The position numbers and the translations under genes were made by a program. The notes under the pieces were generated by a model that did not search any database, was not told where the DNA came from, and saw nothing but the letters and a program-made list of their open reading frames with translations. A stretch of 29,822 nucleotides of DNA from an uncultured Thermotogae bacterium. Its GTDB lineage: Bacteria > Bipolaricaulota > Bipolaricaulia > UBA7950 > UBA9294. Shown here in pieces: positions 7,256 to 24,482 of the stretch (its first letter is position 1; the number at the start of each line of letters is the position of its first letter). The stretch covers positions 1 to 29,822 of the forward strand of contig CAZQUT010000002.1 of the NCBI GenBank assembly GCA_964596555.1. The letters run 5' to 3'.

Positions 7256-7256
7256 C

Positions 7257-8192: not shown

Positions 8193-9493
8193 GCGCTACG
8201 GATGATCGGCCCGACAATTTGCTTTCCCCGCTCTGCTGTCCATTGACTCAGTTTTGCGAAGCTCATCTTCTCAAACCCGATCACGTAACTTTCGAACTCC
8301 TGCCCGACAGGGCCCTTCCATTTATCAGGAATGCGCTCGTATCCAAGGATGGTGCCGAGAAGGCCACCAACTTGTCCGGTCGAGCAGTCTGTGTCAAATC
8401 CACACATGAGTGTAGTTGTGAGAGACTTCTCGAAATCCCCCTCTCCCAATAACAGGCCCGTGACTACAGTGGCGATGTTGGGAAAAGTGTGTATCCAGTG
8501 GTAATGGCCCAGCTCCTGCTGGATCTTTGCCAGCACGCCCTTCCAGTCTCCTATCTTGTTGCACCACCTGATAGTCCGTTCGACCACCTCGCTAAAACGA
8601 CTCTCTGGCGGAACGAACGCCAACGCCAGCCGCAGGATATCCTCGATCGACCGGTCGGAGAAGGCAATGCTGATAAGGGCGGCACAGAAGACCTCACCGT
8701 AGATCCCCTCTCGTCGATGCGAGATGATCGCATCGCGAAAGGCGAGCTCTGCGGCAAGATCGGGGCGAAACGGTGTCAGCAATCCATGTATCTCGCCGCG
8801 CATCTGTGCGCCAATCCACTCACTGCACGGATTTCGAAATCGCCCGCTCTCTGGCGGCATGATCCCTGCTTTGACGTTCTCCAATGCGCTCATCTCCGCA
8901 GTGAACGCATATGGCAGGTGCTCCACCCACTCCAGAGCTAGCTGCTCGCTAGTAAACGAAGAACCGTACTCATCAAGCACATGGAGCACAAGGATCGGGT
9001 AGGCCGTATCGTCATTCTCCACCTTAGGCGGGACGAGGTAGCTATTAACCGTCCCATAGCGGGAACGGATCATCTCACTTGTCCAGCCTTCCACCGGGTC
9101 ACCCAGTGCCGTGCCGATGCACTTCCCCACCCATCCTCCTTTTACTCGATCGAGATACTCCGAATCGGTGATCATACCGGGAATCCCTTTCGGAGGTTGA
9201 GGGAGCAAAGCAGCCATTTCGCTGAAAGTCGTGGGTCCGATGTTCTTGCCAGCTTCCAGCGCAAGGTGGATCTCCTTGTTAATACGAGAGATCCTGACAA
9301 GAAGCTTGTCCCAATTGCCATCCGTATAGCATTTCTCAGCGTGTTGGAGAAGCTTAAGGGCAGCATCCATGTTGTATCCCTGATTGATCATCGCTTGCAC
9401 AGCGGCACGCATGGGGTAGATCTTCACTCCGGAGAGGCTTGTCGTCTCCCACATGTTTGCCGCGTCCTCACGTCGCTTCTTCAATCGATCCAT
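8189..9493 (-). CDS. ADP-ribosylglycohydrolase (ARH/DraG) family protein with an N-terminal extension
   Basis: GGWVGKCIGTALGDPVEG, ENDDTAY and GFDTDCSTGQVG Mg-binding motifs. Start placed at the ATG at 9493 (GAGGT 4 nt upstream); the track start at 9544 overlaps the upstream gene. Confidence 0.85.
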   Translation of the reverse strand: MDRLKKRREDAANMWETTSLSGVKIYPMRAAVQAMINQGYNMDAALKLLQHAEKCYTDGNWDKLLVRISRINKEIHLALEAGKNIGPTTFSEMAALLPQPPKGIPGMITDSEYLDRVKGGWVGKCIGTALGDPVEGWTSEMIRSRYGTVNSYLVPPKVENDDTAYPILVLHVLDEYGSSFTSEQLALEWVEHLPYAFTAEMSALENVKAGIMPPESGRFRNPCSEWIGAQMRGEIHGLLTPFRPDLAAELAFRDAIISHRREGIYGEVFCAALISIAFSDRSIEDILRLALAFVPPESRFSEVVERTIRWCNKIGDWKGVLAKIQQELGHYHWIHTFPNIATVVTGLLLGEGDFEKSLTTTLMCGFDTDCSTGQVGGLLGTILGYERIPDKWKGPVGQEFESYVIGFEKMSFAKLSQWTAERGKQIVGPIIRSA

Positions 9494-9500
9494 GTATACC

Positions 9501-10652
9501 TCACTCATCCCGGAGTGCCTTGGCGAGAAGTTCGAGAATGTCAAGGACTTCTACTTTCGATCCTGCCTTGCTCTTGGCATCCAGAAGTCCACTCTGACAC
9601 GCCGGGCATGCACTCACCACTGTGTCCGCTCCCGTTGCTTCCGCCTCTGTAAACCGATCGAGCTCGCAATCCACGGACATTTCCTCGTAGTCATAGCGAA
9701 CAAACGCGCCGTTTCCACAGCAGAAAGAGTTATCACGGTTACGCGGCATCTCCACCAGCCTGAGCCCAGGGATCATTTCGATCAGTTCTCGCGGTGGCTC
9801 GTAAATTCCCATGTGTCTGCCAAGATTACAGGGATCATGATAGGTAACGACACGAGACAGCTTCTTCAGCTGAACAGGGTGCTTTGCGAGCTCCCCAGTA
9901 ATAAACTCAGTCAAGTGCATCGTCTTAAACGGGAGCGGCTCGCCGAGAAGCCGCGGCATCTCTTCCCTAAACGTACGCAAGCACCCGGGGCAGGCAAAGA
10001 CAACGGTCTCTATTCCAAGGCAGGAAATGGCTTCCAGATTCATCGCCGCCGTTTTTCTTGCATGATCCATCTTCCCTGCCGCGATATAGGGATGACCGCA
10101 ACATTGTTCGTTACCAAGAAGTGTGAAATCCACTCCCAGCTTTTCGAGAACCTGATAAGAACTACGGGCGATACCGCGTCTCAGGTAAGCAGTGGTGCAA
10201 CCAACAAAGAACAGGACACCTGCTTGCCTATCAATCCTTTCTCTGTTGGGAAGCCAGGCAAGTCTCTTCTCTCCGGGTTTCTTATACGGATTGCCAAACT
10301 CGTCCACCTGAGCAAGTACATCGCTGAGGCCAGAGGGCAACAAATCCCGCTCTGCCAGGTCCTCTTTCATCGCTGCGTAGATCTCAGTGAGCGGAAGATA
10401 CTTGAAGCACTGCTCTTGGCAAGCCTCACACTCGGTACAGGCAAAGATACGTTCTGCAACATCTTCGTCATACTCTATTTCCTTGTCGATCAGGGCACGC
10501 GCGATGGCAAGCTTTCCCCGCGCGCCATACGATTCAAGCCCATACGTTGCATATGGTGGACAGATCTTCTGTCCTTCCCCTTGTTCTTGATCGAAACAGA
10601 ACGCACACCGAAGACAGCTGTAGATCTGATCTCTATACTTCTCAAGCTTCAT
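9501..10652 (-). CDS. Fe-S oxidoreductase with two 4Fe-4S motifs and two CCG domains (HdrD/GlcF/GlpC-like)
   Basis: CLRCAFC, CTECEACQEQC, FFVGC, QCCG, FACPGC, YHDPCNLGR, FCCG, SACPAC. Confidence 0.9.
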   Translation of the reverse strand: MKLEKYRDQIYSCLRCAFCFDQEQGEGQKICPPYATYGLESYGARGKLAIARALIDKEIEYDEDVAERIFACTECEACQEQCFKYLPLTEIYAAMKEDLAERDLLPSGLSDVLAQVDEFGNPYKKPGEKRLAWLPNRERIDRQAGVLFFVGCTTAYLRRGIARSSYQVLEKLGVDFTLLGNEQCCGHPYIAAGKMDHARKTAAMNLEAISCLGIETVVFACPGCLRTFREEMPRLLGEPLPFKTMHLTEFITGELAKHPVQLKKLSRVVTYHDPCNLGRHMGIYEPPRELIEMIPGLRLVEMPRNRDNSFCCGNGAFVRYDYEEMSVDCELDRFTEAEATGADTVVSACPACQSGLLDAKSKAGSKVEVLDILELLAKALRDE

Positions 10653-12069
10653 GTTTCACTCCAGTGGGGAAGAGAAGGTCGGGGTTCAAGATACCGTTCG
10701 GGTCCATCGTGGTCTTGAGCGCCTTAAACAGCTCAAAAGACGTACCGAGCTTTCCCATGATGTACGGAGAAACCCCGGCACCCAAACCGCCCGGGCTCAT
10801 CCGCCCTTCCGTGAACATCAACTCGGCGATATCGCCGCGTAACTTCATCCCGTACTCCCAGGCGTCATTTCGGCGTTCATCATACAGGGTGTCGATCCAC
10901 AGGTAGGCCCCGTTGCGGGAGAAGTATGCATCAAGACCCTTGACTCGAATCCCGTATCGGGTGAAATCCGCATCGCGCTCTTCCCGTAGATTGCGGAACA
11001 GCCGAACCGCCTTCTTCAGCCCCTGAGTGGAGACAAACCCCGCTACCTCGGGGCAGAAGTACGGCCGATCACTGTAGTATGGTCCGGGCGCGGTGTTTCG
11101 CAGCCAGGAGTACATGTGCTCCTCCCAGTAGTGCCTCGTCCCCTCCGCAGAGGAAGGGCGCCCGCCGTGCGATTCGCAGATTGCAGCAGCCTCCTGAAGC
11201 CGCTCGCGTGCCCTAGTAGCACGATCACGAACGATCAGGTGGAGGAACCCGTCACCTTCCACTCCCGCCGGTTTAGGTCCACCGAACATGCCAACAATGA
11301 ACGTCGCTGCCTCGCGCATCTGAATACCATCCGCTGCATCGATTGCATCCTGATAGTCATCAAAAGCATAAAATGCAAACAGCTCCGTCTCCGGAACCGG
11401 CCGAATGCGATATGTTACCTTGGTGATAATGCCAAGGACCCCATACGACCCCATGAATAGCCCAGCAAAATCGGGCCCGTTAGCATTTCGCTCGATCGGC
11501 TCAGAATTCGGATTAGCGGCTGAGCCAGTGTTGATTACGCTTCCATCCGGAAGAACGACCTCAAGAGACAGGACATGATCGGCGGTCATCCCATACTCTG
11601 TAGCTCCATGTGGAATAGCATTGACCGCGACTGTCCCACCGATGGTGCATGAGAAGAGTCCTCCCCCACCGGGAACAGCAAGCTCCCGTCCCAGTTTATG
11701 CAAATGGTTGTCGATTCCATGCCAGATCGCCCCTGCCTGTGCAGTGACGTATCCCGCCTGCAGATCAACGCACTCTATCCGGTTCATCCTGGTTGTTTCG
11801 ATAATGATCACGCCGTCTTTAACGCCGCTTCCCAGGAAGGTTGTTCCCCGTCCCCGCGTGTAAATCGCTTTCTTGACTTTGTTCGCGAGACGGACAATCG
11901 CGGCCACCTCTTCTGTCGATCCAGGACGGACTACCGCGTCCGGAATTCCTGCTTTGTCTGGACCACAATCCCGTGAATAGCAGATCCTATCTACCATATG
12001 ATCGCTGACATACCGCTCACCAACGATCGCTACAAGTCCTTCCTTGATATTATTATCCATAACTTTCAC
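10642..12069 (-). CDS. FAD-binding oxidoreductase (VAO/PCMH fold; GlcD/alkyl-DHAP-synthase-like)
   Basis: PDAVVRP, RGRGTT, AQAG, CTIGG, LEVVLPDG, FMGSYGVLGIIT and C-terminal DPNGILNPD. Confidence 0.87.
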   Translation of the reverse strand: MKVMDNNIKEGLVAIVGERYVSDHMVDRICYSRDCGPDKAGIPDAVVRPGSTEEVAAIVRLANKVKKAIYTRGRGTTFLGSGVKDGVIIIETTRMNRIECVDLQAGYVTAQAGAIWHGIDNHLHKLGRELAVPGGGGLFSCTIGGTVAVNAIPHGATEYGMTADHVLSLEVVLPDGSVINTGSAANPNSEPIERNANGPDFAGLFMGSYGVLGIITKVTYRIRPVPETELFAFYAFDDYQDAIDAADGIQMREAATFIVGMFGGPKPAGVEGDGFLHLIVRDRATRARERLQEAAAICESHGGRPSSAEGTRHYWEEHMYSWLRNTAPGPYYSDRPYFCPEVAGFVSTQGLKKAVRLFRNLREERDADFTRYGIRVKGLDAYFSRNGAYLWIDTLYDERRNDAWEYGMKLRGDIAELMFTEGRMSPGGLGAGVSPYIMGKLGTSFELFKALKTTMDPNGILNPDLLFPTGVKHEA

Positions 12070-13405
12070 CTATCTTCTTAACCTCCCTAATAATAGCTTT
12101 CTCATCGATTGTCGTGATCGTCCGATCGCGCATGACGATGCGCCCATTAATGATTACCGTTTCAACATCGCTCCCCTTGGCACAATAGACAAGCGCAGGG
12201 ATGATATCGTCGCTCAAGTTGAACATATGCGGAGCAGAGGGATCCATGATGACAAGGTCAGCAAGCCGTCCCTCGTCAATGGTCCCCGCGTCGACTCGGC
12301 AGGCCGCAGCTCCAACTGCGGTCGCACTGGCAAAGATATCGCGCGCATCCAGGGCAGTTGGATCCATAGCTGCCACCTTCTGCAGGAGGACCCCGGTACG
12401 CATCTCCTCAAATGGGTCCAGGAGGTCATTTGATGCCGCGCCATCGGTTCCCATAGCGACATTGACACCAACCTGCCGCATCTTCGTGATTGGAGCGATC
12501 CCACTGCCAAGCTTCATGTTGCTCTTCGGGTTGTAGACCACTGTCACCGAGCGATTCTTGGCAAGCTCTATCTCCTTATCGGTAAGGTGAACGCCATGGA
12601 CGGCAAGAATCGGGCGAGAGAGAAAACCGATCGACTCCAGGTAAGAGAGAGGAGTCTTCCCCACCGTTTCCAGGGAGTGTTGCACCTCCCACTCCGTCTC
12701 CGACACATGTGTCTGAATCCCGAGGTCATATCGCTCAGCGGTCTCCATGATCCAAGTGAGCAAGCCCTCACTACAGGTAAACGGAGCGGAGGGCCCTAGG
12801 AAGACCTGCACGAGCGGATCTTCCGATGGCATCTGATGCCAGTCCTCAATAAGCTTCAGGGTCTCTTCCCGCAACCGCTCTGGCGTAGTGATCAAATCGT
12901 CGGGGACCCACTGATCGACCATACTCATCGCAGCGATCCCGCGGATGCCCATCTCGGCCCACGCTTGCGGAACTCCGGGAAGATTCATGTCCATGTCGAT
13001 GAACGTCGTGATCCCGCTTCGAATCATCTCTATCGTCCCGAGCATCGACCAGAGATAACCAATCTCACCTACGCTCCCTTCTCGCATTCGCCGCAGCACG
13101 TTACGCACAAACGGGAAGGTCACTTCCTCGCACCACGATACGAGCGGGACGTCATCCCTCCTACCCTTAAGCATCGATTGATAGAGGTGAGTGTGTGCGT
13201 TGACAAACCCGGGCGTGACGATCCGGCCTCTTCCATCGATAACGATGGTCTCCAGTGTTATCTCCTGTGATGTGACCTGACCGATCCGCACGATCCGATT
13301 CCCTTCGATCAGCACGTCCACATCGTGCTCCACACGGTGCGCGTCCCGAACGAGATGGGAGATATTCTCGATGAGGATCATCCTTTCTCTCATGTCATCC
13401 ACCAT
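12053..13405 (-). CDS. Metal-dependent amidohydrolase/deaminase (MtaD-like, 5'-deoxyadenosine/MTA/SAH deaminase family)
   Basis: PGFVNAHTH, QTHVSET, AVHGVH, NPKSNMKLGSG, GTDGAASN. The start may instead be 13393. Confidence 0.87.
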   Translation of the reverse strand: MVDDMRERMILIENISHLVRDAHRVEHDVDVLIEGNRIVRIGQVTSQEITLETIVIDGRGRIVTPGFVNAHTHLYQSMLKGRRDDVPLVSWCEEVTFPFVRNVLRRMREGSVGEIGYLWSMLGTIEMIRSGITTFIDMDMNLPGVPQAWAEMGIRGIAAMSMVDQWVPDDLITTPERLREETLKLIEDWHQMPSEDPLVQVFLGPSAPFTCSEGLLTWIMETAERYDLGIQTHVSETEWEVQHSLETVGKTPLSYLESIGFLSRPILAVHGVHLTDKEIELAKNRSVTVVYNPKSNMKLGSGIAPITKMRQVGVNVAMGTDGAASNDLLDPFEEMRTGVLLQKVAAMDPTALDARDIFASATAVGAAACRVDAGTIDEGRLADLVIMDPSAPHMFNLSDDIIPALVYCAKGSDVETVIINGRIVMRDRTITTIDEKAIIREVKKIGESYG

Positions 13406-14384
13406 TGCAATCCCTTCCTTCTAGAAGATCGACCAAGCACTTCACGTCCACCTTCCCAGCACGGCTTACGCGCCCGCTGGAGAGGTGATTGATCGTGATC
13501 TGCGCCGGTTTGTTGATGTCATTCAGATTAGGGATCTTCTCGAAGACCCCACCCGCTTCCCGCAACACATCGCAGAACAGGCGCCCGTAAATCGAAGCGG
13601 ATTCAAATGAGAGCCGGTGCGCAAGCTCATCCAAGCCGTCATCCGGAAAGCCGTCAACAGTAAGGAGCGCAGCGCCAGCGTAGTGAATGAAGTCATCGGG
13701 GTAGGGACGATTCTCTGTGGGAGATGCGCCTCCGTTCACCGGGCACACAAGCGCTCGCCCGATCATGTGTTTGACGATATGGGGATCGACGTCCAGGCTC
13801 TCTTTCATAGTGAAGATGACGCTCTCATTCACTCGTCCCGCGATCTGCGTCGCGCCAACCACACTTGCGATCGGTGCGGCGATCAGGGTCAACATCTGCG
13901 GCAGAACGCCGCTCTTCTCAGCAAGATGGAGCGCAACCGCATCATCGGGGAGACAATCGGTTTCAATGACGGCAATCCCGATCGCATCCTTCGCGGGCAA
14001 GTCTCCATCCAAACACAGACGGATAGGACCGGAAACGCGAATCCCCGGCTTATCCGCGCTCAATGGATAGGAGGTTTGCAGTCCGTATGTTGAGAGGAGA
14101 GGATGAAACGACTCGACAGTAATCTGTGGGAGGATGAATCCCCCAAGATCGGTGAGGTCAAGCGAGACGTTGGCCAGCCCTCCATGGCAGATCTCAATCA
14201 ACAGGCGCCCTGCCTCGAATGACCCAACTACGCCAAATCCAGCGTCGATCAACGTCGCTTTGCAGGGGAGTGTCTGTACAGAGAGGCCGTATTCCCATGC
14301 GTGGTCAATCAGAATGCGCGTGAGCTCGCCCGATCGGCGGGCAATATGCGCTTGCATTCTTGAATCGAGGCTTGGACTATTCAT
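13395..14384 (-). CDS. mch: Methenyl-tetrahydromethanopterin cyclohydrolase-like protein (divergent)
   Basis: Co-linear motifs matching Mch: LIDAG, GSFEAG, EICHGGLANV, SGP.R, ETDCLP, APIASVVGATQIAGRVNE, IYGRLF, SSGRVSRAGKV. Confidence 0.82.
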   Translation of the reverse strand: MNSPSLDSRMQAHIARRSGELTRILIDHAWEYGLSVQTLPCKATLIDAGFGVVGSFEAGRLLIEICHGGLANVSLDLTDLGGFILPQITVESFHPLLSTYGLQTSYPLSADKPGIRVSGPIRLCLDGDLPAKDAIGIAVIETDCLPDDAVALHLAEKSGVLPQMLTLIAAPIASVVGATQIAGRVNESVIFTMKESLDVDPHIVKHMIGRALVCPVNGGASPTENRPYPDDFIHYAGAALLTVDGFPDDGLDELAHRLSFESASIYGRLFCDVLREAGGVFEKIPNLNDINKPAQITINHLSSGRVSRAGKVDVKCLVDLLEGRDCNGG

Positions 14385-14389
14385 ATTCT

Positions 14390-15298
14390 CTACCGTTCAC
14401 CGACCACATCAGGAAGGTAAAGCTGATGCTTTCCCCACTTCCCTCCGAATGAAGGGGCGGTGATGCGTATTGTCCCTGGAGTTGCAGCAAAGGCATCAAT
14501 CGCCGTGCGCAATCCCTCTTTGATCTCGGCAAGCCCTACTCCGATGAGCGGGTACTCGATCACCGCATCCGCGTTATCCGGGATTTTCGTTTCAACTTCG
14601 TTGCGCAGCCCGGGGCAGAACGGCTCGTTGATCGTCAAGCCTTCGTCGCGATAATTGATGCCGCCTACCTTCGCTCCGCTGATTCCACCGAGTGGATAGT
14701 TGAAGAGAGAGACACCGTAGACATCGTTGAAGATGCGATCCGATGCCTCCTGTGCCGCGATAAGACATGAAGCCGCATTCTGAGCGAAGACCTCAAGCAC
14801 GCCGTCCATACCGTTGATGATGTGGAACTGCCGCTCGATCATGATGTCTCCCGTCATGATCGGAAGGCGTATCACATCGCGCCCGCCAAGTTTCTCCTCC
14901 CGCTCGAATCCATCGCCCCATCTTCTCACATGTTCGCCAATGGCGATCATCTCCCCATCTCTTCCCTGCAGGCTTGCATCGAAAAGCGAGCAAGTGGGAA
15001 GGTGTGGCAGGATGTACAAGCGATCGAGCAAGGCTTTGCGGAATGCATCCATCCCCAACTCTGTAGGAGCGTTGAACTGAATGAGAACGCCGGGGCGGGC
15101 ATCCGGAGATTCCGTCGGGGAGACGCGTCCCTCCACGCATGCTTGCAGCGGCGCAGAAGTGATCACGGAAAAGCCGGATAAATAAGTGGCTTCTTGCAGC
15201 GCTACTCTCTCTGTCAGGGCAGTAAGCAACACACGGCAGAGATAGACATCCGTACATTCACAGTTCACTTCTTCCAGTTCGATATTCTTGTACAGCAA
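14390..15298 (-). CDS. ftr: Formylmethanofuran:tetrahydromethanopterin formyltransferase-like protein (divergent)
   Basis: RVLLTA, GFSVI, SPDARPG, LLDR, PTCSLFDA, WGDGF, LPIMTGDI, SGAKVGG, FCPGL, VIEY, FGGKWG, all in Ftr order. SD AAAGGAG upstream. Confidence 0.85.
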   Translation of the reverse strand: MLYKNIELEEVNCECTDVYLCRVLLTALTERVALQEATYLSGFSVITSAPLQACVEGRVSPTESPDARPGVLIQFNAPTELGMDAFRKALLDRLYILPHLPTCSLFDASLQGRDGEMIAIGEHVRRWGDGFEREEKLGGRDVIRLPIMTGDIMIERQFHIINGMDGVLEVFAQNAASCLIAAQEASDRIFNDVYGVSLFNYPLGGISGAKVGGINYRDEGLTINEPFCPGLRNEVETKIPDNADAVIEYPLIGVGLAEIKEGLRTAIDAFAATPGTIRITAPSFGGKWGKHQLYLPDVVGER

Positions 15299-15319
15299 TG
15301 TTTCTCCTTTTCTTGTCTT

Positions 15320-16327
15320 CTAGATCATTCTTCCGTACGCATGAAGGGCGTCACGCCTGAGAGAGAGCACGACGCGGTTGCTCGGTGCAAAAGCACGTAT
15401 TGGCGTTCCATCGAGAATTAGGGCTGCATCCGCTTCGAGGCCCACAATCTCCACGCTGTCACCATCACCAAAGCTGATCTGCCGGAGAGTGACCGGTTCG
15501 ATGGCTTCGATATCCTTCTGAACGATATGCGTTCGAATCAAGACGGCACTTGCCACAGTGAGGACTCCCTCTTTGCCTAGGTATGGTCCCCAACACATCA
15601 ACCCACTCACAGCCTTTCCACTGTAGGGAACTGGATCATTGATCGGCGAGGCAACGATCTGCCCCATCTGCGTGTCCATACTGCTAACCATTAGTAGCTC
15701 ATTCTTGTAGATTCGCGTTTTCTCCCCACAAACTGAGTGCGGCTGAGCTTCCCTCTTCGTTCCAGTGAGCATCGCACGGGCGTCTAGATCAAGGCGCACC
15801 CCATCTCTCGTTCCAAAGAAGGTATTGCTGAAAGTGACGTCGTTGAATGCAATCCCTATGTGTTCACCATTCACCCGCACATCAATTCCGTGAATCGGAC
15901 GAGCCGCGAGGCAAGACAGATCGAGCCGTTCCAAATCCCTCCCACGTATCGTTACAAGCGGTCCCACGTTGGACGACCCAGCACCGACTCCCAGGAGGCG
16001 TACCTTCGCTCCACTAGCTACTATTGTGTTTGCGACTGCGCATAGGGTCCCATCCCCACCAACGCCAATCAGCGTATCAACTTTCCTCGCAAGCATCGCC
16101 TTCGCCGCGCGTTCAATGAACGCAAAATCGGAGGTCACGGGAACATCCATTTGGATAAAGTCCTGTCCTTTTTCTTGGGCAATGGATGCACCAACTGTCC
16201 CGGACACGATCAATAGGGAGGCGATCTCAACGCGAGAGAAGAGAATGGGAAGCAGCTCCCGCATCGCTGTCTCTCCCCGTCCAGCAGCAGGATGGACAAT
16301 CAAACCGGCACGCACGATGTGGTTCAC
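15320..16327 (-). CDS. NAD-kinase / diacylglycerol-kinase superfamily protein (ATP-NAD kinase/AcoX-like)
   Basis: IVHPAAGRG, GVGGDGT, GSSNVG and AFNDV (NE/ND motif). Start placed at the GTG at 16327 (GTGA overlap, GGAGGGG SD). Confidence 0.75.
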   Translation of the reverse strand: MNHIVRAGLIVHPAAGRGETAMRELLPILFSRVEIASLLIVSGTVGASIAQEKGQDFIQMDVPVTSDFAFIERAAKAMLARKVDTLIGVGGDGTLCAVANTIVASGAKVRLLGVGAGSSNVGPLVTIRGRDLERLDLSCLAARPIHGIDVRVNGEHIGIAFNDVTFSNTFFGTRDGVRLDLDARAMLTGTKREAQPHSVCGEKTRIYKNELLMVSSMDTQMGQIVASPINDPVPYSGKAVSGLMCWGPYLGKEGVLTVASAVLIRTHIVQKDIEAIEPVTLRQISFGDGDSVEIVGLEADAALILDGTPIRAFAPSNRVVLSLRRDALHAYGRMI

Positions 16328-17151
16328 TTGATCGCCCCTCCCGTAAGACCGGAGACAAGGTATTTCTGGCCCAGCATGAACAGGATCAGGACAGGGATAC
16401 ATGCCAGCAACGCTGCTGCGCTCAATGGCCCCCACCGAACTACCCCGCCTGAACCCATGAACCGCGCCAGGAATACGGGAAGAGTGTAGTGAGCGTTATC
16501 ACGCATAATGACTAATGCAAAGAAAAACTCGTTCCACGATAGAAGCAATGAGAATGTCCCCACTGCCAGGAGCCCAGGAACGGAAAGAGGAAGAACGATC
16601 TTGACGAGCGATCTCAGCCGGCCACACCCGTCAATGCGAGCAGCTTCTTCTAAGGCAACCGGGATCTTGTCGAAGTAACCCTTAAGCAACCAGATGCCGA
16701 AGGGCATGCTGAAACTGGTGTACATAATCACAAGGCCAGGGATCGTATTCAACAAATGGTAGGTCTTCAATACGGTGAAGAGTCCCAGAACCATGATGAT
16801 CCCAGGGAAGGACTGGGTGGCAAGGAGCCACACGGAGAATATGGTTCGCCCACGAAACCTGAACCGCGATAGAGCATATCCGGCCGGCGTAGAAACGATG
16901 ATCGACAAGAGCACGGTCGCCAGGGCAACGATGCTGCTATTCTTGAAGTTCGTTATAAAGGTCGACTCGGTAAAGATCTCCTGGTAGTTGACAAACGTCA
17001 CTTCCCTTGGAACCTCCATTGGGGAAGCGATAATTTCTTGCTCTGTTTTGAACGAGTTAAACAGGAGAAAGACCATCGGAAAGGCAAGGAGGAGCATGAA
17101 CAGGACGACAAACACGTGCAACAGCACCTGTTTTACTGGGGACATCCTCAT
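16324..17151 (-). CDS. Carbohydrate-family (CUT1) ABC transporter permease, MalG-like
   Basis: NSFKT, FKNS, GYALSRFRFRGR, EAA loop LEEAARIDGC, SWNEFFFAL. Start placed at the ATG at 17151 (ATGA overlap). Confidence 0.93.
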   Translation of the reverse strand: MRMSPVKQVLLHVFVVLFMLLLAFPMVFLLFNSFKTEQEIIASPMEVPREVTFVNYQEIFTESTFITNFKNSSIVALATVLLSIIVSTPAGYALSRFRFRGRTIFSVWLLATQSFPGIIMVLGLFTVLKTYHLLNTIPGLVIMYTSFSMPFGIWLLKGYFDKIPVALEEAARIDGCGRLRSLVKIVLPLSVPGLLAVGTFSLLLSWNEFFFALVIMRDNAHYTLPVFLARFMGSGGVVRWGPLSAAALLACIPVLILFMLGQKYLVSGLTGGAIK

Positions 17152-18026
17152 CTTAGTACCTCCCGAATGTAAAAGACGATCACGACAAGAAGGCACAACA
17201 GAATAAGTAGACCGATCGCGGCTCCATAGCCCGCTTGATAGTACATGAATGCGTTTTCGTAGGCGTACAGGGGAAGAGTGAGAGACGCATTCCCCGGGCC
17301 CCCTTTTGTCAAAATGAACACGATGTCGAACATGTTGAATGTCCAAATCGTCTCCAGAGTAAAGATTATCAGTACAACTTTCTTGATGCTCGGGACGATG
17401 ATGTTAACCTGAGTCTGAATATAGCTCGCCCCGTCGATTGCTGCAGCATCGACGATATCTTTATTGATCGTCTGCAGCCCGGCAAGAAGCATTACAGTGA
17501 CAAATGGAATCCCCATCCAAATATTGGTGATGATGCATGTCCAGAGAGCAAGCTGCGGATCAGTGAGCCAATTGGGCGGATGGGCCATGCCCAAAGAATG
17601 GAGGACAGTATTCAGTGGCCCGCCGTTAAGAAAGATGTAGCGCCACATTAGTGAGACAACAACCGGAGGCAGGGCCCAAGGAACGAGAGCTATTCCGCGG
17701 AACATCCTTCGGAAACGCAGGAAGCGGGAATTAAGCATTGTGGCCAGCCAATAGGAAAGGACAAACTGCATCCCAACGCTGGTTATCGTCCAGACAAGGC
17801 TGTTACTGAATGCACGCAGGAAAAGGGGATCCTGAAACAGAAGTCCCACATTTTGGAAGCCGACAAACACGGTCTCTCGTGCGAGAGCACGGTAAGTGTA
17901 GAACATCCGCGTAATTCCCTGTATCAATGGATACAGGCTGACACCACAGAGAACAACTAACGCTGGAATGAGAAAGGGAATGGCTCGGCGCTCTTCGTTG
18001 AATGCTCCGCGATTGCTGTGCATCAT
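17148..18026 (-). CDS. Carbohydrate-family (CUT1) ABC transporter permease, MalF-like
   Basis: FVGFQN, PWALPPVV, W.GIPF, EAA loop DAAAIDGAS, TKGGPGNAS. Confidence 0.93.
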   Translation of the reverse strand: MMHSNRGAFNEERRAIPFLIPALVVLCGVSLYPLIQGITRMFYTYRALARETVFVGFQNVGLLFQDPLFLRAFSNSLVWTITSVGMQFVLSYWLATMLNSRFLRFRRMFRGIALVPWALPPVVVSLMWRYIFLNGGPLNTVLHSLGMAHPPNWLTDPQLALWTCIITNIWMGIPFVTVMLLAGLQTINKDIVDAAAIDGASYIQTQVNIIVPSIKKVVLIIFTLETIWTFNMFDIVFILTKGGPGNASLTLPLYAYENAFMYYQAGYGAAIGLLILLCLLVVIVFYIREVLR

Positions 18027-19054
18027 TGACCAAGCCCTTCAGCAAACTCTATCACAATCTTCAATCCTTTAGCTTCCTTGGCAAGTTGCAGTGCTTTCTC
18101 TAGCTCGGAAAAGGGGAAAGTATGTGTGATGATGCCCGGGAAATCTTGTGCATGATCGTTCAACCAGTTGACGGCTTCTCCAAACTGGCGCAGGTTGTAG
18201 CCGAAACTGCCCACAAGGGAGATCTCGCGGTAGTGTACCGCAAATGCATCGATACATACTCGATCACCCTTCGGTAATCCTCCGAATAGAAGAACCCGTC
18301 CAGCGGGCGCTGCCATATCAAAAGCCGTTTCTACTGGTGCCTTGCTTCCGACGGCGACTAGGATGCGATCAGCTTTGTCCCTGCCCCACTCGGCGGTCAT
18401 CCGCTCGCTGAGGTCCTCTTCCTGTGGTGAGATAACAGCCAGGCCGAGGTGGCGCGCCGCTTCAATCCGTGAAACGGAGATCTCGCTCAGTAGAACCTGT
18501 GCGCCTTTCGTTCTTGCCAACAGGGCAAGCATCACTCCCATCGGCCCGCCACCGATGACAAGGACGGTATCACCGTTACTGATGTCCGCCTTCTCGATCC
18601 CATTATGAACACAGGCAAGTGGTTCAGCTAGCGATCCGACGGAGAAATCGACCTCCGCTCCCAAGCGGAAGGTCCCCTGTTCCACGATCGCTCGTGGAAG
18701 AAGGATGAACTCCTGAAACGCGCCCGTAACAAATGACTTGTGTTCGCACATCTCCCCAAAATCGTGCTGGCAGAGATCGCACACTCCACACTCAACATAC
18801 GGAGCAGCAACGACTCGCTCTCCTACCTTGAATCGGTCAACTTCTGGCCCCACTTCCACTATGGTCCCAGTAAACTCATGTCCAAGTATGCAAGGAGGGG
18901 TGAAGTACGGGTGTCCCTTGAAGTAAGCCTTAACGTCGGTTCCACACAGTCCGACGGCTTGTGTCTTCAGCACTATCTCTCCAGGACCGGCGTGCGGCGT
19001 GGGAATCTCCCGATAACCGATCTTCCCAATCTCGACAAGCTCAGCGATCTTCAT
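18023..19054 (-). CDS. Zn-dependent alcohol/polyol dehydrogenase (MDR, sorbitol/threonine dehydrogenase-like)
   Basis: GLCGTD, LGHE, structural Zn motif CGVCDLC...C, AEPLAC, Rossmann motif IGGGPMG. Confidence 0.92.
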   Translation of the reverse strand: MKIAELVEIGKIGYREIPTPHAGPGEIVLKTQAVGLCGTDVKAYFKGHPYFTPPCILGHEFTGTIVEVGPEVDRFKVGERVVAAPYVECGVCDLCQHDFGEMCEHKSFVTGAFQEFILLPRAIVEQGTFRLGAEVDFSVGSLAEPLACVHNGIEKADISNGDTVLVIGGGPMGVMLALLARTKGAQVLLSEISVSRIEAARHLGLAVISPQEEDLSERMTAEWGRDKADRILVAVGSKAPVETAFDMAAPAGRVLLFGGLPKGDRVCIDAFAVHYREISLVGSFGYNLRQFGEAVNWLNDHAQDFPGIITHTFPFSELEKALQLAKEAKGLKIVIEFAEGLGQ

Positions 19055-19080
19055 CTTTGATGTCCTTCTGATCGTCTCTC

Positions 19081-19107
19081 AAGAAAGAAGGGGGGCTCTC
19101 GCCCCCC
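19081..19107 (-). terminator. Intrinsic terminator inside the operon
   Basis: Minus strand GGGGGGC-GAGA-GCCCCCC-TTCTTTCTT: a 7-bp GC stem, GNRA tetraloop and U-rich tail, just downstream of the stop at 19116. Confidence 0.75.
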
Positions 19108-19115
19108 ATAAAAAT

Positions 19116-19631
19116 CTAGTACTCGACCCGGATCTCGACGACGTACCAGTTCCACTGGTTCTCGTCGTAGAGCTCTATGGTCTCTGGATCGGAGTTGTAC
19201 GGGAAGGCAAGCTTCACCGGTCCACCCACGCTTGCTGGGAGGTCATCACCATCGAGAGTGGTAACCAAAAGGACCGGATAGTAGAGGGCATCCCTGATTG
19301 CAACGGGGACTTCCTTATCATCCGAAGCGATCGTCACGGCAGTGCTAGCACCGGCGGGAATCCCCACGTAGTCGAGAACCGCCTTCAGCGTCACACCACC
19401 GTAGGCCTGTTCTCCCATCCACGGATCCTCCACTACAAAGGCAACGTAGGGAAGTGCCTTCAGCATGTCGATATCAAACTCGAACACGTCACCATTATTG
19501 GTCAGCGCGATCGCTCCCGATACCGTAAATACAACCTCTCCAGCAGGTACGGGGACTTCTTTCCCCCACACACTCACGGCCATGAGTGTAATCACCAGTA
19601 CGCATAGCAACACCTTAGAAACATTTTTCAT
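19116..19631 (-). CDS. Exported protein with an oxidoreductase molybdopterin-binding-like (sulfite oxidase/MsrP-type) fold
   Basis: Signal peptide MKNVSKVLLCVLVITLMAVSVWG, then FTVSGAI, DPW, GVTLKAVL, ASDD, LDG, GGPVKLAFP, WNWYV. Strong SD GGGAGG. Fold call made by motif resemblance. Confidence 0.68.
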   Translation of the reverse strand: MKNVSKVLLCVLVITLMAVSVWGKEVPVPAGEVVFTVSGAIALTNNGDVFEFDIDMLKALPYVAFVVEDPWMGEQAYGGVTLKAVLDYVGIPAGASTAVTIASDDKEVPVAIRDALYYPVLLVTTLDGDDLPASVGGPVKLAFPYNSDPETIELYDENQWNWYVVEIRVEY

Positions 19632-19736
19632 AATCTATCCTCCCTTGTCTGTCTTTTGCTTCGTTTGGATCTATCTTGTTCTTATACTTATGCTCATGCT
19701 TATAATTATCACCTCCATAAATCGCAGATTACCCCC

Positions 19737-20999
19737 CTATTGCAGGCCCATCCTCTTTAGGAACATGTTCCCCTGCGTCGTTGCATTGTTGAGAGCTGTA
19801 TCAAGGTCTCTTTTTCCCAAGACAACGAGTTCTAACTGCGGCAGGAATGATTGCCACTCCCACGAGAAGAATGCAAACATGTGCGGCTTCACGTCCCGAG
19901 CGTAGGGCAGCCACTGATACGCGACGTTCCACTGCCCTCCTTCTGTTTGAAATTCTGGCCGATCGATGGCGCTCTGTCTGACCGGGAAGAGCCAGTCAGC
20001 ATAGGCAATCCGGGCTGAATTCTCCACATTGGTGAAGAACTTCACGAACTCGGCCGCCTCATCTTTGTGTGGAGAGTCAATGTATATGCCCAACGATTGC
20101 GGATCAGATTCGGTGACCGTCCTTTCATCTCCCTTAACCTGCAGCATCCCCCAATCGAGTTTCCCCTTTGTCAGTCGCTCGATCCAGCTTCGTACCCAGC
20201 AACCGTAGCTGAACATCGCATACTTACCAGTTCTAAACCCTTGCAGCAGGCTCATGAAGTCATAACTCAAGATATCCTGCGGCATCGTCTTATCTACCGT
20301 TACTAGATCGGTGAAACTCTTGATCGCCTGCCTAGCGTTATCGTCAATGTCTACGTGCCACGTCCCATCGTCATACTGCTGGAGCACGTGTCCATTGTTC
20401 TCATCCACCAGACACCACCACAGACGCTGCTCGAGCGGGGCGAGTAGCCCCCACGTGGTGACCTCGCCGGTCTCATCCCTCTTGGTCAGTAGCTGCGCGT
20501 AGCCACGGAGTTCGTCCCAGGTGATCATCCCATCTTCAGGTAGAACGATCCCCGCGTCGGTGAACAGGGCCTTGTTGTAGAAGATGACCAGTGTCTCTTG
20601 CAAAAGGGGCATCCCATAGATAGCGCCGTTATCATCGCTAACCCCATCCCATATCGATGAGGAGATATCGGCCAGTGTGTCATCGCTCAGGTAATCGTTG
20701 AGCGGAGCAGCGTAGCCGAGCATCCCATACTCATAGCACATTACTGAATCCTCATGGAAGATGTCCGGGGCTTGCCCACCCTGAAAACTAGTCAACAGAT
20801 AGTCGTCCAGGTTCTCCCAGCCTTGCCAATTGATCTCGACCTGAATGTCCGGATTAGCCTCATTCCACTCCGCGACGATAGCCTTGATCTCCTTCACCGT
20901 ATCTCCCTGCCAGGCAGGGCAGACAAACATGAGGTCGGCGGCCGATCCGAGAACCCCAAGCATCGAGACCATCAGAGCCAGCAACATAACTCGTTTCAT
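19737..20999 (-). CDS. Carbohydrate-family ABC transporter substrate-binding protein (Sec signal peptide, no lipobox)
   Basis: Signal peptide MKRVMLL, WNEANPDIQV, GQAPDIF, YGMP, FYNKALF, TWDEL, FRTGKYAM. SD AAGGAGG supports a start at 20999 or 21002. Confidence 0.93.
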   Translation of the reverse strand: MKRVMLLALMVSMLGVLGSAADLMFVCPAWQGDTVKEIKAIVAEWNEANPDIQVEINWQGWENLDDYLLTSFQGGQAPDIFHEDSVMCYEYGMLGYAAPLNDYLSDDTLADISSSIWDGVSDDNGAIYGMPLLQETLVIFYNKALFTDAGIVLPEDGMITWDELRGYAQLLTKRDETGEVTTWGLLAPLEQRLWWCLVDENNGHVLQQYDDGTWHVDIDDNARQAIKSFTDLVTVDKTMPQDILSYDFMSLLQGFRTGKYAMFSYGCWVRSWIERLTKGKLDWGMLQVKGDERTVTESDPQSLGIYIDSPHKDEAAEFVKFFTNVENSARIAYADWLFPVRQSAIDRPEFQTEGGQWNVAYQWLPYARDVKPHMFAFFSWEWQSFLPQLELVVLGKRDLDTALNNATTQGNMFLKRMGLQ

Positions 21000-21035
21000 C
21001 ATTCCTCCTTTCATGCTCTTACACCCTCCCTTTTG

Positions 21036-22700: not shown

Positions 22701-22710
22701 AGGTACCTCC

Positions 22711-24455: not shown

Positions 24456-24459
24456 AATG

Positions 24460-24482
24460 GGAAATCGTTTTCCGAAATCGTT
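24460..24482. promoter_or_regulatory. LacI-type operator (GGAAATCGTTTTCC, 24460-24473) plus an adjacent repeat GAAATCGTT (24474-24482)
   Basis: CG-centred near-palindrome with 6 of 7 pairs matching, resembling LacI-family operators. It sits between the -10 box and the regulator start codon. Confidence 0.65.

What the first reader, a model, noticed from the sequence alone, without database searches (positions are those of the whole stretch)
14390..15298. Ftr homolog with the formyl-activating Ser apparently replaced by Ala
Known (recalled, M. kandleri numbering): Ser209 in S(A/G)SKVG activates the formyl group and Glu245 in YEIV is the proposed base. Seen: SGAKVG (Ala at the Ser position) and VIEY (Glu kept). 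The N-terminal DTFAEAF motif is replaced by EVNCECT. Inference: altered acyl donor or acceptor, so not a formylmethanofuran transferase; it may transfer or remove the formyl group generated by the adjacent Mch-like protein.
Basis: partly seen in the sequence, partly recalled or inferred. Interest (0 to 1): 0.66.

Follow-up and report, generated by a model that had tools for sequence, protein, structure and literature searches.

The report
Divergent Ftr-like formyl enzyme, catabolic operon
This gene encodes an intact but clearly re-specialised relative of the methanogen enzyme Ftr; it sits with a similarly altered Mch relative inside a large, conserved import-and-breakdown operon of bacteria that make neither of Ftr's two coenzymes, so it almost certainly handles a formyl group on some other, still unidentified, imported compound.

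Summary
ORF 14390-15298 (-) is a 302-aa protein with the Ftr fold: E 1e-38 to 1e-41 against solved Ftr structures, and an AF2 model with TM 0.91. It reads S207-G-A209-K-V-G where all four solved Ftr/FhcD structures and 31/31 canonical representatives have Ser or Thr. The Glu (E248 = M. kandleri E245) is kept. DTFAEAF is replaced by EVNCECT.

The changes are a family signature, not damage. About 78 relatives share CECT / SGAKVGG / IE[FY]P / PSFGGxWG. These come mostly from Bipolaricaulota MAGs, with some labelled Atribacterota, Thermotogota and other phyla. dN/dS is 0.05-0.09. The clade lies in a well-supported Ser-less superclade apart from Ftr/FhcD and fails the NCBIfam Ftr cut-off (172 vs 293 bits).

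The gene always lies in one LacI-headed operon. Its parts are an exported phosphoesterase, a sugar-type ABC importer, a polyol dehydrogenase, a kinase, Ftr-like, Mch-like, cog0402 deaminases, two AORs, a GlcD/F-type oxidoreductase, an ARH-family hydrolase, ribokinase and an aldolase.

Six operon-bearing genomes have no H4MPT or methanofuran biosynthesis gene, and no Mtd, FwdA or FwdC.

Best reading: a non-methanofuran formyl transferase or deformylase acting just after the Mch-like enzyme. The substrate is unresolved; I lean towards a methanopterin-like pterin, with a purine-type compound as the main rival. The scan found the same pair earlier in another Bipolaricaulota genome.

The parts
14390..15298 (-). 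Ftr-like protein (FtrL), 302 aa, TTG start preceded by AGGAG
   Evidence: AF2 model pLDDT 96; Foldseek TM 0.91 to 1m5s/1ftr/1m5h.
14663..14680 (-). SGAKVG segment. Ala209 (14672-14674) replaces the Ser/Thr that is universal in canonical Ftr/FhcD. The loop before it is two residues shorter.
14555..14557 (-). Glu248, equivalent to M. kandleri Glu245 / FhcD Glu252 (oxyanion-stabilising residue). Invariant in the clade.
   Evidence: PMC6926001.
15251..15271 (-). N-terminal strand motif EVNCECT (clade consensus D-T-x-C-E-C-T) in place of DTFAEAF. Glu14 is kept; A13C, A15C and F16T are switched.
14990..15004 (-). Clade-invariant H99-L-P-T-C103 segment. Together with invariant C54 and near-invariant C13 it is a possible clade-specific metal or redox site; not mapped in 3D.
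13395..14384 (-). Mch-like protein, 5 nt downstream of FtrL. Keeps the R..E of the catalytic segment. QKAGW reads QTSYP. Below the NCBIfam Mch cut-off (158 vs 229 bits).
   Evidence: Directly downstream of FtrL in 16 of 18 informative loci.
12053..13405 (-). cog0402 (TRZ/ATZ) amidohydrolase/deaminase; overlaps the Mch-like gene by 11 nt. The same type sits beside Ftr-like genes in distant loci.
15320..16435 (-). NAD-kinase/DAG-kinase-like kinase, always directly upstream of FtrL. The listed start is probably too far upstream.
3..24497 (-). The operon that holds FtrL. Gene order: LacI, DhnA-type aldolase, exported metallophosphoesterase, sugar-type SBP, small exported Moco-domain-like protein, Zn-ADH, two permeases, kinase, FtrL, MchL, deaminase, GlcD-like FAD enzyme, CCG/GlcF-like Fe-S protein, ARH-family hydrolase, ribokinase, two AORs, SsnA-like hydrolase, PreA-like flavoprotein, hydantoinase-like hydrolase.
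   Evidence: Synteny in L003-L024.

Best explanation
FtrL is a functional, re-specialised member of the Ftr fold family. It is not formylmethanofuran:H4MPT formyltransferase.

It keeps the Ftr chemistry core: the buried Glu that stabilises the tetrahedral oxyanion of a formamide, plus about 30 other family invariants, many of them polar. One substrate cleft has been rebuilt. The Ser/Thr209 hydroxyl is lost, the conserved hydrophobic residues F16, F152, F201, V250, M263 and L288 are replaced, and new invariant Cys/His/Trp/Pro residues appear.

It works as the step after the adjacent Mch-like enzyme. MchL hydrolyses a cyclic amidine/amidinium to an N-formyl amine. FtrL then takes the formyl group off, either passing it to an acceptor other than methanofuran or releasing formate. 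Tetrahydrofolate is the obvious acceptor candidate, because formate-THF ligase is present in relatives and would yield ATP.

Both enzymes serve a LacI-controlled pathway of about 20 genes. That pathway dephosphorylates a compound outside the cell, imports it through a sugar-type ABC system, removes a ribose, degrades a polyol side chain (dehydrogenase, kinase, aldolase, AOR, 2-hydroxyacid-type oxidoreductase) and deaminates and opens an N-heterocycle.

What is shown: homology, fold, residue pattern, purifying selection, conserved operon, and absence of coenzyme biosynthesis and partner enzymes. What is inferred: the reaction, its direction, the acceptor and the substrate.

My confidence of 0.6 is for the general mechanism, that is, non-methanofuran formyl removal coupled to MchL in a catabolic pathway. 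Within that, I put about 0.35-0.4 on the substrate being a methanopterin-like pterin glycoside and about 0.25 on a purine-type or other heterocycle.
For: **Homology and fold:**

**Distinct lineage:**
- It scores 172 bits against a cut-off of 292.6 for TIGR03119, while canonical representatives score 340-430.
- A 97%-supported superclade holds FtrL and six further Ser-less lineages, apart from Ftr/FhcD.

**Constraint:**
- 57 invariant columns among 35 members that are 49-88% identical to the window's protein.
- dN/dS 0.05-0.09.

**Residue pattern:**
- 30 canonical invariants are kept, including E14, R22, D66, R68, R93, D129, K210, Y216, N224 and E248.
- 12 are switched clade-wide (A13C, F16T, A36E, E52Q, G54C, P200N, F201Y, S209A, T223I, V250P, M263L, L288W).

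**Context:**
- The same operon occurs in 22 loci down to 50% FtrL identity.
- MchL lies directly downstream in 16 of 18 informative loci.
- Genes are tightly packed or overlapping.

**Coenzymes and partner enzymes are missing:** no hit for beta-RFAP synthase, MfnB or Mtd in any of six genomes; for FwdA in the five searched; or for the FwdC GXGXG domain in the window's genome, the only one searched. There is one Ftr-family gene per genome.

**THF route is available:** Fhs in 5/6 genomes and Pterin_bind in 6/6.

**The module recurs at great distance:**
- Ftr-like genes only 26-45% identical also sit with a cog0402 amidohydrolase (35-42% identical to the window's), Zn-ADH, DeoC-type aldolase and GlcD/CCG.
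- They also sit with Mch-like genes and importers.

**Points leaning to a pterin substrate:**
- Two unrelated H4MPT-specific folds were recruited together.
- A third, Mer-like, fold lies in L028 (best NCBIfam hits are Mer, below cut-off).
- An exported Moco-domain-like protein is conserved next to the SBP.
- An ECF-type (vitamin-type) importer lies beside the L031 homologue.
- The polyol-chain module has no role in nucleoside breakdown.
Against: - There are no biochemical data for any member of the clade.
- The role of Ser209 in canonical Ftr could not be verified, so its loss cannot be read mechanistically.
- I could not map the switched residues onto the methanofuran and H4MPT sites of 2FHJ because no coordinates are available here. 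'The methanofuran cleft is the one rebuilt' rests on my recollection that methanofuran is held mainly by hydrophobic contacts.
- The genomes are MAGs (the window's is 75% complete; the others are of unstated completeness), so absences are strong only because they repeat in six genomes.
- The nearest characterised relatives of the deaminase act on adenosine derivatives. SsnA-, hydantoinase- and PreA-like enzymes are typical of purine/pyrimidine breakdown. Both points favour a purine reading of the substrate.
- Two informative loci (L021, L018) lack MchL next to FtrL. Some distant homologues (L025, L030, L031) also have no Mch-like neighbour, so FtrL may not depend strictly on MchL.
Confidence: 0.6

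Rival explanations
1. Same mechanism, different substrate: a purine-type (or other non-pterin) heterocycle. A nucleotide is dephosphorylated outside the cell, imported and deaminated by the cog0402 enzyme. MchL opens an amidine carbon of the ring to a formamide; this would be formally the reverse of IMP cyclohydrolase, or a GTP-cyclohydrolase-III-like opening. FtrL removes the formyl group, as AICAR transformylase run backwards or ArfB would. The ARH-family enzyme and ribokinase deal with the ribose. SsnA-, hydantoinase- and PreA-like enzymes finish the ring.
For: - The deaminase's best characterised relatives are MTA/SAH/5'-deoxyadenosine and 8-oxoguanine deaminases.
- Ribokinase passes its equivalog cut-off.
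- One hydantoinase/dihydropyrimidinase passes its cut-off. SsnA-like and PreA-like proteins are present.
- The lineage lacks purF, purM, purC and purH in 6/6 genomes, so it must import purines.
- An earlier follow-up on another genome also read the operon as nucleoside-type (e1-1153189).
Against: - The importer is a CUT1 sugar/glycoside-type system rather than a nucleoside-type binding protein.
- The conserved Zn-ADH, kinase, DhnA-type aldolase, AOR and GlcD/CCG module has no obvious role in nucleoside breakdown, yet it travels with Ftr-like genes even in very distant loci.
- Hydrolytic opening of an aromatic purine ring is thermodynamically unfavourable (established knowledge of the PurH reaction).
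- It does not explain why H4MPT-specific folds, and in L028 a Mer-like protein, were recruited.
Confidence: 0.25
2. It is a genuine formylmethanofuran:H4MPT formyltransferase that runs on coenzymes scavenged from methanogens. Ser209Ala would then be a tolerated substitution.
For: - Full-length Ftr fold with the key Glu kept.
- Databases annotate relatives as Ftr.
- An importer is encoded in the same operon.
Against: - It scores well below the curated cut-offs.
- Twelve canonical invariants are switched clade-wide, including the universal Ser/Thr209 and F16.
- There is nothing to make or use formylmethanofuran: no FwdA in five genomes searched and no FwdC in the window's genome. Mtd is absent from all six genomes.
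- The gene is embedded in a sugar-regulated catabolic operon, not a C1 cluster.
Confidence: 0.07
3. [quoted passage not shown]
For: - A universally conserved hydroxyl is lost.
- The more distant relatives P0104/P0107 have lost both the SGSK loop and the Glu, which shows the fold can persist without them.
Against: - Within the FtrL clade the Glu and 30 other family invariants are strictly kept.
- The switched positions are themselves invariant, which is a pattern of re-specialisation rather than relaxation.
- dN/dS is 0.05-0.09.
- No FhcA/B/C-type partners were found: FwdA/FhcA-type absent in five genomes searched and the FwdC/FhcC GXGXG domain absent in the window's genome; FhcB was not sought.
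Confidence: 0.06

Closest known systems
Formylmethanofuran:tetrahydromethanopterin N-formyltransferase, Ftr (EC 2.3.1.101; PDB 1FTR/2FHJ M. kandleri, 1M5S M. barkeri, 1M5H A. fulgidus)
   Same: - Same two-lobe fold over the full length: TM 0.91, rmsd 1.9 A, 29-34% identity.
- Same length.
- The conserved Glu, the PDGRPG and GDG motifs, K210, Y216 and N224 are kept.
   Different: - Ala instead of the universal Ser/Thr209, with a two-residue shorter loop before it.
- DTFAEAF becomes D-T-x-C-E-C-T.
- E52Q, G54C, V250P and L288W, plus a new invariant PHLPTC segment.
- It fails the curated family cut-offs.
- It lies in a catabolic operon of organisms without methanofuran or H4MPT biosynthesis.
FhcD, the formyltransferase subunit of the bacterial formyltransferase/hydrolase complex (PDB 6S6Y; PMC6926001)
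   Same: - A bacterial Ftr-fold protein that works in the formyl-unloading direction, next to an amidohydrolase-superfamily hydrolase.
- TM 0.87. The Glu (E252) is aligned.
   Different: - FhcD keeps SGSKVGG and uses methylofuran held by FhcC.
- Here no FhcA- or FhcC-type proteins were found (FwdA/FhcA sought in five genomes, the FwdC/FhcC domain only in the window's; FhcB not sought). The neighbouring amidohydrolase is a cog0402 deaminase type.
Unnamed Ser-less Ftr-like lineages found here (P0081, P0083/L028, P0085 and its paralogue/L026, P0086, P0104, P0107/L031)
   Same: - One well-supported superclade with FtrL.
- None has Ser/Thr209.
- They sit with a cog0402 amidohydrolase, Zn-ADH, DeoC-type aldolase, Mch-like genes and ABC or ECF importers.
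   Different: - 26-45% identical to FtrL.
- Different residues at positions 207-209.
- P0086, P0104 and P0107 have lost the Glu.
- Operon composition varies (XDH-type, Mer-like, GFO/IDH/MocA and FGGY kinase instead of the NADK-like kinase).
Functional analogues only, not homologues: PurH (AICAR transformylase/IMP cyclohydrolase), archaeal GTP cyclohydrolase III plus formamide hydrolase ArfB, and formiminotransferase-cyclodeaminase
   Same: Each pairs a cyclohydrolase step on a cyclic amidine with a step that transfers or removes the resulting formyl/formimino group. This is the logic proposed for MchL and FtrL (established pathway knowledge; an analogy, not tested here).
   Different: - Unrelated folds.
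- The analogous steps are biosynthetic or folate-linked.
- purH itself is absent from all six genomes, along with the rest of de novo purine synthesis.

Membership tests
Ftr/FhcD (EC 2.3.1.101; NCBIfam TIGR03119, NF002554) | Two-lobe Ftr fold (Pfam FTR + FTR_C) over the full length | tested here: met
   PF01913 and PF02741 at 77 bits each. AF2 model pLDDT 96. Foldseek TM 0.91 to 1m5s/1ftr/1m5h and 0.87 to 6s6y_D.
Ftr/FhcD (EC 2.3.1.101; NCBIfam TIGR03119, NF002554) | Score above the curated equivalog/subfamily cut-off | tested here: not met
   171.8 vs 292.6 bits and 171.6 vs 297 bits. Canonical representatives P0087/P0091/P0092 score 342-429.
Ftr/FhcD (EC 2.3.1.101; NCBIfam TIGR03119, NF002554) | Conserved Glu (Mk Glu245 / FhcD Glu252) that stabilises the oxyanion | tested here: met
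   E248 is aligned in all four PDB alignments and invariant in 78/78 clade members. Role taken from PMC6926001.
Ftr/FhcD (EC 2.3.1.101; NCBIfam TIGR03119, NF002554) | Ser/Thr at Mk position 209 in S(A/G)SK(V)G | tested here: not met
   Ala209. Canonical: S29 T2 of 31. Clade: A77 of 78.
Ftr/FhcD (EC 2.3.1.101; NCBIfam TIGR03119, NF002554) | N-terminal D-T-F/Y-A-E-A-F motif | tested here: not met
   Reads E-V-N-C-E-C-T. Only Glu14 is shared. F16 (30/31 canonical) is Thr in 75/78 clade members.
Ftr/FhcD (EC 2.3.1.101; NCBIfam TIGR03119, NF002554) | Organism makes, or has enzymes that use, methanofuran and H4MPT (beta-RFAP synthase, MfnB, Fwd/Fhc subunits, Mtd) | tested here: not met
   No hit for TIGR00144, PF04476 or PF01993 in six genomes, for TIGR03121 above cut-off in five genomes, or for PF01493 in the window's genome, the only one searched for it. 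The control genomes did give hits. The MtdA/B model PF09176 gave no hits in the controls, so that result is uninformative. These are MAGs, so absence is probable, not proven.
Ftr/FhcD (EC 2.3.1.101; NCBIfam TIGR03119, NF002554) | Formyl transfer between formylmethanofuran and H4MPT | not testable with these tools
   Needs an enzyme assay.
Ser-less Ftr-like superclade (unnamed; defined here) | Monophyly apart from canonical Ftr/FhcD, and no Ser/Thr at position 209 | tested here: met
   A branch with SH-aLRT 97 joins 23 rows. This was a quick IQ-TREE search, so support is less reliable than from a full search. Position 209 is A/V/I or deleted in all members.
Ser-less Ftr-like superclade (unnamed; defined here) | Encoded beside a cog0402 amidohydrolase within an import/catabolic gene cluster | tested here: met
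   Seen in the window and L003-L024, and in L026, L031 and L033 with an amidohydrolase 35-42% identical to the window's.
Formyltransferase/hydrolase complex (FhcABCD) | FhcA (FwdA-type amidohydrolase), FhcB and FhcC (GXGXG) partners | tested here: not met
   No GXGXG domain in the window's genome. Only generic amidohydrolase N-terminal matches of about 30 bits to TIGR03121, against a cut-off of 393. FhcB was not searched for.

The most novel reading that the evidence does not exclude
The operon is a dedicated pathway by which fermentative or acetogenic bacteria of anoxic sediments (Bipolaricaulota, Atribacterota and others) import and dismantle methanopterin-type C1 coenzymes released by dead methanogens.

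The proposed steps:
- An exported phosphoesterase trims the phosphodiester tail.
- A glycoside-type ABC system takes up the ribofuranosyl-polyol-pterin.
- MchL and FtrL strip the methenyl/formyl unit from N5/N10 and hand it to tetrahydrofolate, giving ATP via formate-THF ligase.
- The ARH-family enzyme and ribokinase remove the alpha-ribose.
- The dehydrogenase, kinase, aldolase, AOR and GlcD/F chain degrades the deoxyribityl-aryl side chain.
- The deaminases and ring hydrolases consume the pterin.

FtrL would then be the first Ftr-fold enzyme that uses formyl-H4MPT as a catabolic substrate rather than as a coenzyme intermediate.
Probability: 0.3. Interest if true: 0.85.

Novelty: new variant of a known kind. 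Interest (0 to 1): 0.6.

Why it matters
Ftr and Mch genes found outside methanogens and methylotrophs are routinely annotated, and discussed in evolutionary arguments, as evidence of H4MPT/methanofuran-linked C1 metabolism (for example PMC5020050).

This clade shows that a sizeable, widely distributed branch of the Ftr family has a different job, in organisms that cannot make either coenzyme. That affects annotation of subsurface MAGs and the inference of 'ancient C1 pathways' from gene presence.

If the substrate proves to be a methanogen coenzyme, it would reveal an unrecognised trophic link: bacteria feeding on archaeal cofactors in methanogenic sediments. It would also reveal a new reaction type for the Ftr fold.

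The pathway is directly testable with a handful of recombinant proteins.

Tried and rejected
1. **Replacement for a missing PurH.** I checked whether FtrL and MchL might replace PurH in purine biosynthesis. purH is indeed absent in 6/6 genomes, but so are purM, purC and true purF. The whole pathway is missing, and there is no gap for a replacement to fill. Rejected.

2. **Literature on Ser209 and Glu245.** Two full-text searches, the Acharya 2006 DOI and the supplement of PMC6926001 gave nothing on Ser209. A search for open papers on Mch active-site residues also found nothing.

3. **Published descriptions of this operon, or of methanopterin degradation.** None found. The Caldatribacterium paper only shows pterin/folate auxotrophy in Atribacterota.

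4. **Expression evidence.** Only DNA runs (salt-lake and marine metagenomes) hold the stretch. The run search asked for any kind of run rather than RNA specifically and listed no RNA run, and I did not lay reads.

5. **Ser207 as the 'true' equivalent of Ser209.** Rejected. The K-V-G anchor fixes the register in all four PDB alignments, and position 207 is Ala in 7 of 31 canonical enzymes.

6. **FwdA-like identity of the neighbouring amidohydrolases.** Rejected.

7. **Mapping switched residues onto the methanofuran and H4MPT sites, or testing whether C13/C54/H99/C103 cluster in 3D.** Not possible, because the tools do not return model or PDB coordinates.

8. **PF09176 (MtdA/B).** The search gave no hits even in the control genomes, so the result is uninformative.
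Full report
**What is at the coordinates**

ORF 14390-15298 on the minus strand encodes 302 aa. It starts at a TTG that lies 6 nt after an AGGAG Shine-Dalgarno sequence. Pfam finds both Ftr domains over the full length. phmmer against the PDB gives E 3e-41 to 7e-38 for the three archaeal Ftr structures and 1e-23 for FhcD of the Methylorubrum Fhc complex. An AlphaFold2 model built on 73 family sequences has mean pLDDT 96 and pTM 0.92. It superposes on 1m5s, 1ftr and 1m5h with TM 0.91 and rmsd 1.9 A, and on 6s6y_D with TM 0.87. It is a real, full-length Ftr-fold protein.

**The observation**

In every pairwise alignment the K-V-G anchor puts query S207-G-A209-K opposite S-A/G-S-K of M. kandleri, M. 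barkeri and A. fulgidus Ftr and of M. extorquens FhcD. Query E248 lies opposite the Glu of YEIV/LEIV. Query E-V-N-C-E-C-T (10-16) lies opposite D-T-F-A-E-A-F. The coordinates of these segments were verified by translation.

Among 31 canonical representatives, position 209 is Ser 29 times and Thr twice. Position 207 is Ser 22, Ala 7, Cys 1, Gly 1.

Two points of recalled background need correction. The Fhc structure paper describes the Glu as a protonated residue that stabilises the tetrahedral oxyanion, not as a base (PMC6926001). I found nothing in the library on a role for Ser209.

**A family signature, not damage**

A search of 5.8 billion proteins returned 80 close relatives at 49-100% identity. 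Where they are named, they come from Bipolaricaulota, Atribacteria and a Spirochaetota MAG. All full-length members share these segments:

| FtrL clade | Canonical Ftr/FhcD |
|---|---|
| D-T-x-C-E-C-T | DTFAEAF |
| GGI-SGAKVGG | GGIxxSGSKVGS |
| AVIE[FY]P | VYEIVIN |
| PHLPTC | (no equivalent invariant segment) |
| PSFGGxWG | GNYGGKLG |

A column-by-column contrast gives two lists:
- 30 positions are conserved in both groups: E14, R22, T26, A27, P65, D66, R68, G70, R93, P101, F106, G128, D129, G130, P146, M148, G150, G163, G166, G208, K210, Y216, N224, C228, P229, P240, E248, G286, G289, L295.
- 12 positions are switched from one conserved residue to another: A13C, F16T, A36E, E52Q, G54C, P200N, F201Y, S209A, T223I, V250P, M263L, L288W.

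dN/dS against four orthologues is 0.05-0.09. This is the pattern of a re-specialised enzyme under strong constraint.

**Place in the family**

An exhaustive HMMER search of 1.84 billion cluster representatives finds only 276 Ftr-family clusters. In a tree of 59 full-length sequences, one branch with 97% SH-aLRT support joins FtrL with six further lineages: P0081, P0083 with a paralogue from L026, P0085, P0086, and P0104 with P0107. This branch is separate from all canonical Ftr/FhcD types (a quick search, so support is less reliable than from a full search). No member of this superclade has Ser/Thr209.

NCBIfam scores tell the same story. Canonical representatives reach 340-430 bits against cut-offs of 293-297. 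The superclade reaches 149-252, and the window's protein 172.

**Genomic context**

The window is almost entirely one minus-strand operon. In order, it encodes:
- LacI regulator
- DhnA-type class I aldolase
- exported metallophosphoesterase
- CUT1-type sugar binding protein
- small exported Moco-domain-like protein
- Zn-dependent polyol/threonine-type dehydrogenase
- two permeases
- NAD-kinase/DAG-kinase-like kinase
- FtrL
- Mch-like protein
- cog0402 deaminase
- GlcD-like FAD enzyme with a GlcF-like CCG protein
- ARH-family glycohydrolase
- ribokinase (above its equivalog cut-off)
- two AOR-type tungsten enzymes (closest to 1AOR)
- SsnA-like hydrolase
- PreA-like flavoprotein
- hydantoinase-like hydrolase

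FtrL, MchL and the deaminase are separated by 5 nt and by an 11-nt overlap respectively.

A scan of 185,579 species genomes found 22 loci, mostly in Bipolaricaulota MAGs. tblastn shows the same gene order in essentially every locus long enough to tell, down to 50% FtrL identity. MchL lies directly downstream of FtrL in 16 of 18 informative loci.

**No coenzymes and no partner enzymes**

The window's MAG is 1.27 Mb and 75% complete. It and five other operon-bearing genomes each have exactly one Ftr-family gene. The window's MAG also has a single Mch-family gene, in the operon. None of the six has a hit to beta-RFAP synthase (the committed step of methanopterin synthesis), MfnB (methanofuran synthesis) or F420-dependent Mtd. 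FwdA/FhcA-type hits were absent above noise in the five genomes searched. The FwdC GXGXG domain was absent in the window's genome, the only one searched for it. The control genomes gave hits for all of these models. Formate-THF ligase is present in 5 of 6 genomes and a Pterin_bind protein in all six, so folate-based C1 chemistry is available.

**Distant relatives point the same way**

Contigs carrying the other Ser-less lineages repeat the association:
- **P0083 (38% identical):** lies with a sugar binding protein and two permeases, an SDR, an Mch homologue, Zn-ADH, a DeoC-type aldolase, an XDH-type molybdoenzyme, and a luciferase-like protein whose best NCBIfam hits are methylene-H4MPT reductase, below cut-off.
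- **P0085 (35% identical):** lies in a run of two Ftr-like and two Mch-like genes with MalK, a binding protein, permeases and a cog0402 amidohydrolase.
- **P0081:** is followed by Mch, a cog0402 amidohydrolase and a binding protein.
- **P0107:** has lost the loop and the Glu. It lies in a complete 6.44-Mb genome within GntR, Zn-ADH, FGGY kinase, DeoC, GlcD-like, CCG, amidohydrolase, Zn-ADH, Ftr-like. Next come a 204-aa polytopic membrane protein and ECF T and A components.

The amidohydrolases in these loci are 35-42% identical to the window's. The recurring core is therefore an Ftr-like protein, a cog0402 amidohydrolase, a polyol dehydrogenase, a kinase, an aldolase, usually an Mch-like protein, and an importer.

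**How it most likely works**

- **Shown:** fold, residue pattern, constraint, operon, and missing coenzyme pathways.
- **Inferred:** MchL hydrolyses a cyclic amidine to an N-formyl amine. FtrL, using the retained Glu-centred chemistry, removes that formyl group to an acceptor other than methanofuran, or to water.
- **Reasoning on which site changed:** the retained family invariants are largely polar, and the switched ones are largely conserved hydrophobics. I recall that methanofuran is held mainly by hydrophobic contacts and that H4MPT lies in a shallow cleft. If so, the methanofuran side is the one rebuilt. I could not test this, because no coordinates are available.
- **Candidate acceptor:** tetrahydrofolate is attractive because formyl-THF plus formate-THF ligase would conserve ATP.

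**What the substrate might be**

Two readings survive.

*The pterin reading.* This was first proposed for this operon in scan note e1-5295881. It explains the most parts:
- Two unrelated H4MPT-specific folds were recruited together, and a Mer-like one in L028.
- The importer is glycoside-type.
- An ARH-family enzyme (a family known for alpha-ribosyl bonds) sits with ribokinase.
- A chain of polyol dehydrogenase, kinase, class I aldolase, AOR and 2-hydroxyacid-type oxidoreductase fits a deoxyribityl-aryl side chain.
- An exported pterin-cofactor-domain-like protein is present.
- The deaminases belong to a family that includes pterin deaminases (family knowledge).

*The purine reading.* It is favoured by the deaminase's nearest characterised relatives. 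It is also favoured by the SsnA/hydantoinase/PreA set and by the lineage's complete lack of de novo purine synthesis. It leaves the polyol module and the importer type unexplained.

I put about 0.35-0.4 on the pterin reading and 0.25 on the purine or other-heterocycle reading. Both fall within a 0.6 confidence in the general mechanism.

**Rejected or unlikely**

- A canonical Ftr running on scavenged coenzymes is unlikely (0.07), for the reasons given under coenzymes and partner enzymes.
- A pseudoenzyme is unlikely (0.06), given the strict retention of the Glu and the invariant nature of the switched residues.
- The idea that FtrL and MchL replace PurH was tested and rejected, because the whole purine pathway is absent.

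**Novelty and prior notes**

No paper describing this clade or operon was found. A published opinion article treats such genes in bacteria as H4MPT/methanofuran-linked C1 genes (PMC5020050).

The scan had already noted the same motif in another genome (e1-5295348). It had also followed up the same Ftr/Mch pair in another Bipolaricaulota genome, reading it as a nucleoside-type operon (e1-1153189).

I rate this as a new variant of a known kind, with interest 0.6. It is a clear, well-supported case of functional divergence with a testable and potentially surprising substrate, but there is no biochemical evidence and the substrate is unresolved.

Noticed in passing
whole genomes G000-G005 (operon carriers): No purH, purM, purC or true purF in any of six genomes; the only purF hits are the amidotransferase domain of GlmS-sized proteins. 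Formate-THF ligase is present in 5/6. The lineage looks like a purine auxotroph.
   Followed up: partly
L028:529-1521: A luciferase-like ORF lies in a distant Ftr-like/Mch-like/ABC-importer cluster. Its best NCBIfam hits are methylene-H4MPT reductase (Mer): 175 bits vs a cut-off of 276, and 160 vs 349. It would be a third H4MPT-pathway fold in such a cluster.
   Followed up: partly
L031:10001-14857 (CP017634.1, a complete 6.44-Mb genome): An Ftr-like protein lacks both the SGSK loop and the catalytic Glu. It is followed by a 204-aa polytopic membrane protein and ECF-transporter T and A components, which looks like a vitamin-type importer. The same Zn-ADH/kinase/DeoC/GlcD/CCG/amidohydrolase set lies upstream.
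   Followed up: partly
L026:3824-9471: Two Ftr-like and two Mch-like paralogues lie within about 6 kb (Ftr-like, an oxidoreductase gene, then Mch-like, Ftr-like, Mch-like). They are followed by MalK, a sugar binding protein and two permeases, with a cog0402 amidohydrolase alongside.
   Followed up: no
window 14990-15004, 15137-15145, 15251-15271: Clade-specific invariant or near-invariant C13, C15, C54, H99 and C103 have no counterpart in canonical Ftr. They may form a metal or redox site. Their spatial proximity could not be checked.
   Followed up: no
window 19116-19631: A small exported protein with a weak match to the Moco-binding domain of sulfite-oxidase-type enzymes. It has a signal peptide and is conserved next to the binding-protein gene in most related loci at 40-94% identity.
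   Followed up: partly
window 8189-9544: The ARH-family protein has no NCBIfam hit. Its only PDB relative is MJ1187 of Methanocaldococcus jannaschii (1t5j, E 5e-7). It carries an N-terminal extension of about 130 aa.
   Followed up: no
window 15320-16435: The kinase ORF as listed (GTG start) overlaps the upstream permease ORF (16324-17346) by 112 nt. The real start is probably further downstream.
   Followed up: no
window 13395-16435: The stretch is held at full length by DNA runs labelled salt-lake and marine metagenomes. The search asked for any kind of run rather than RNA specifically and listed no RNA run.
   Followed up: no
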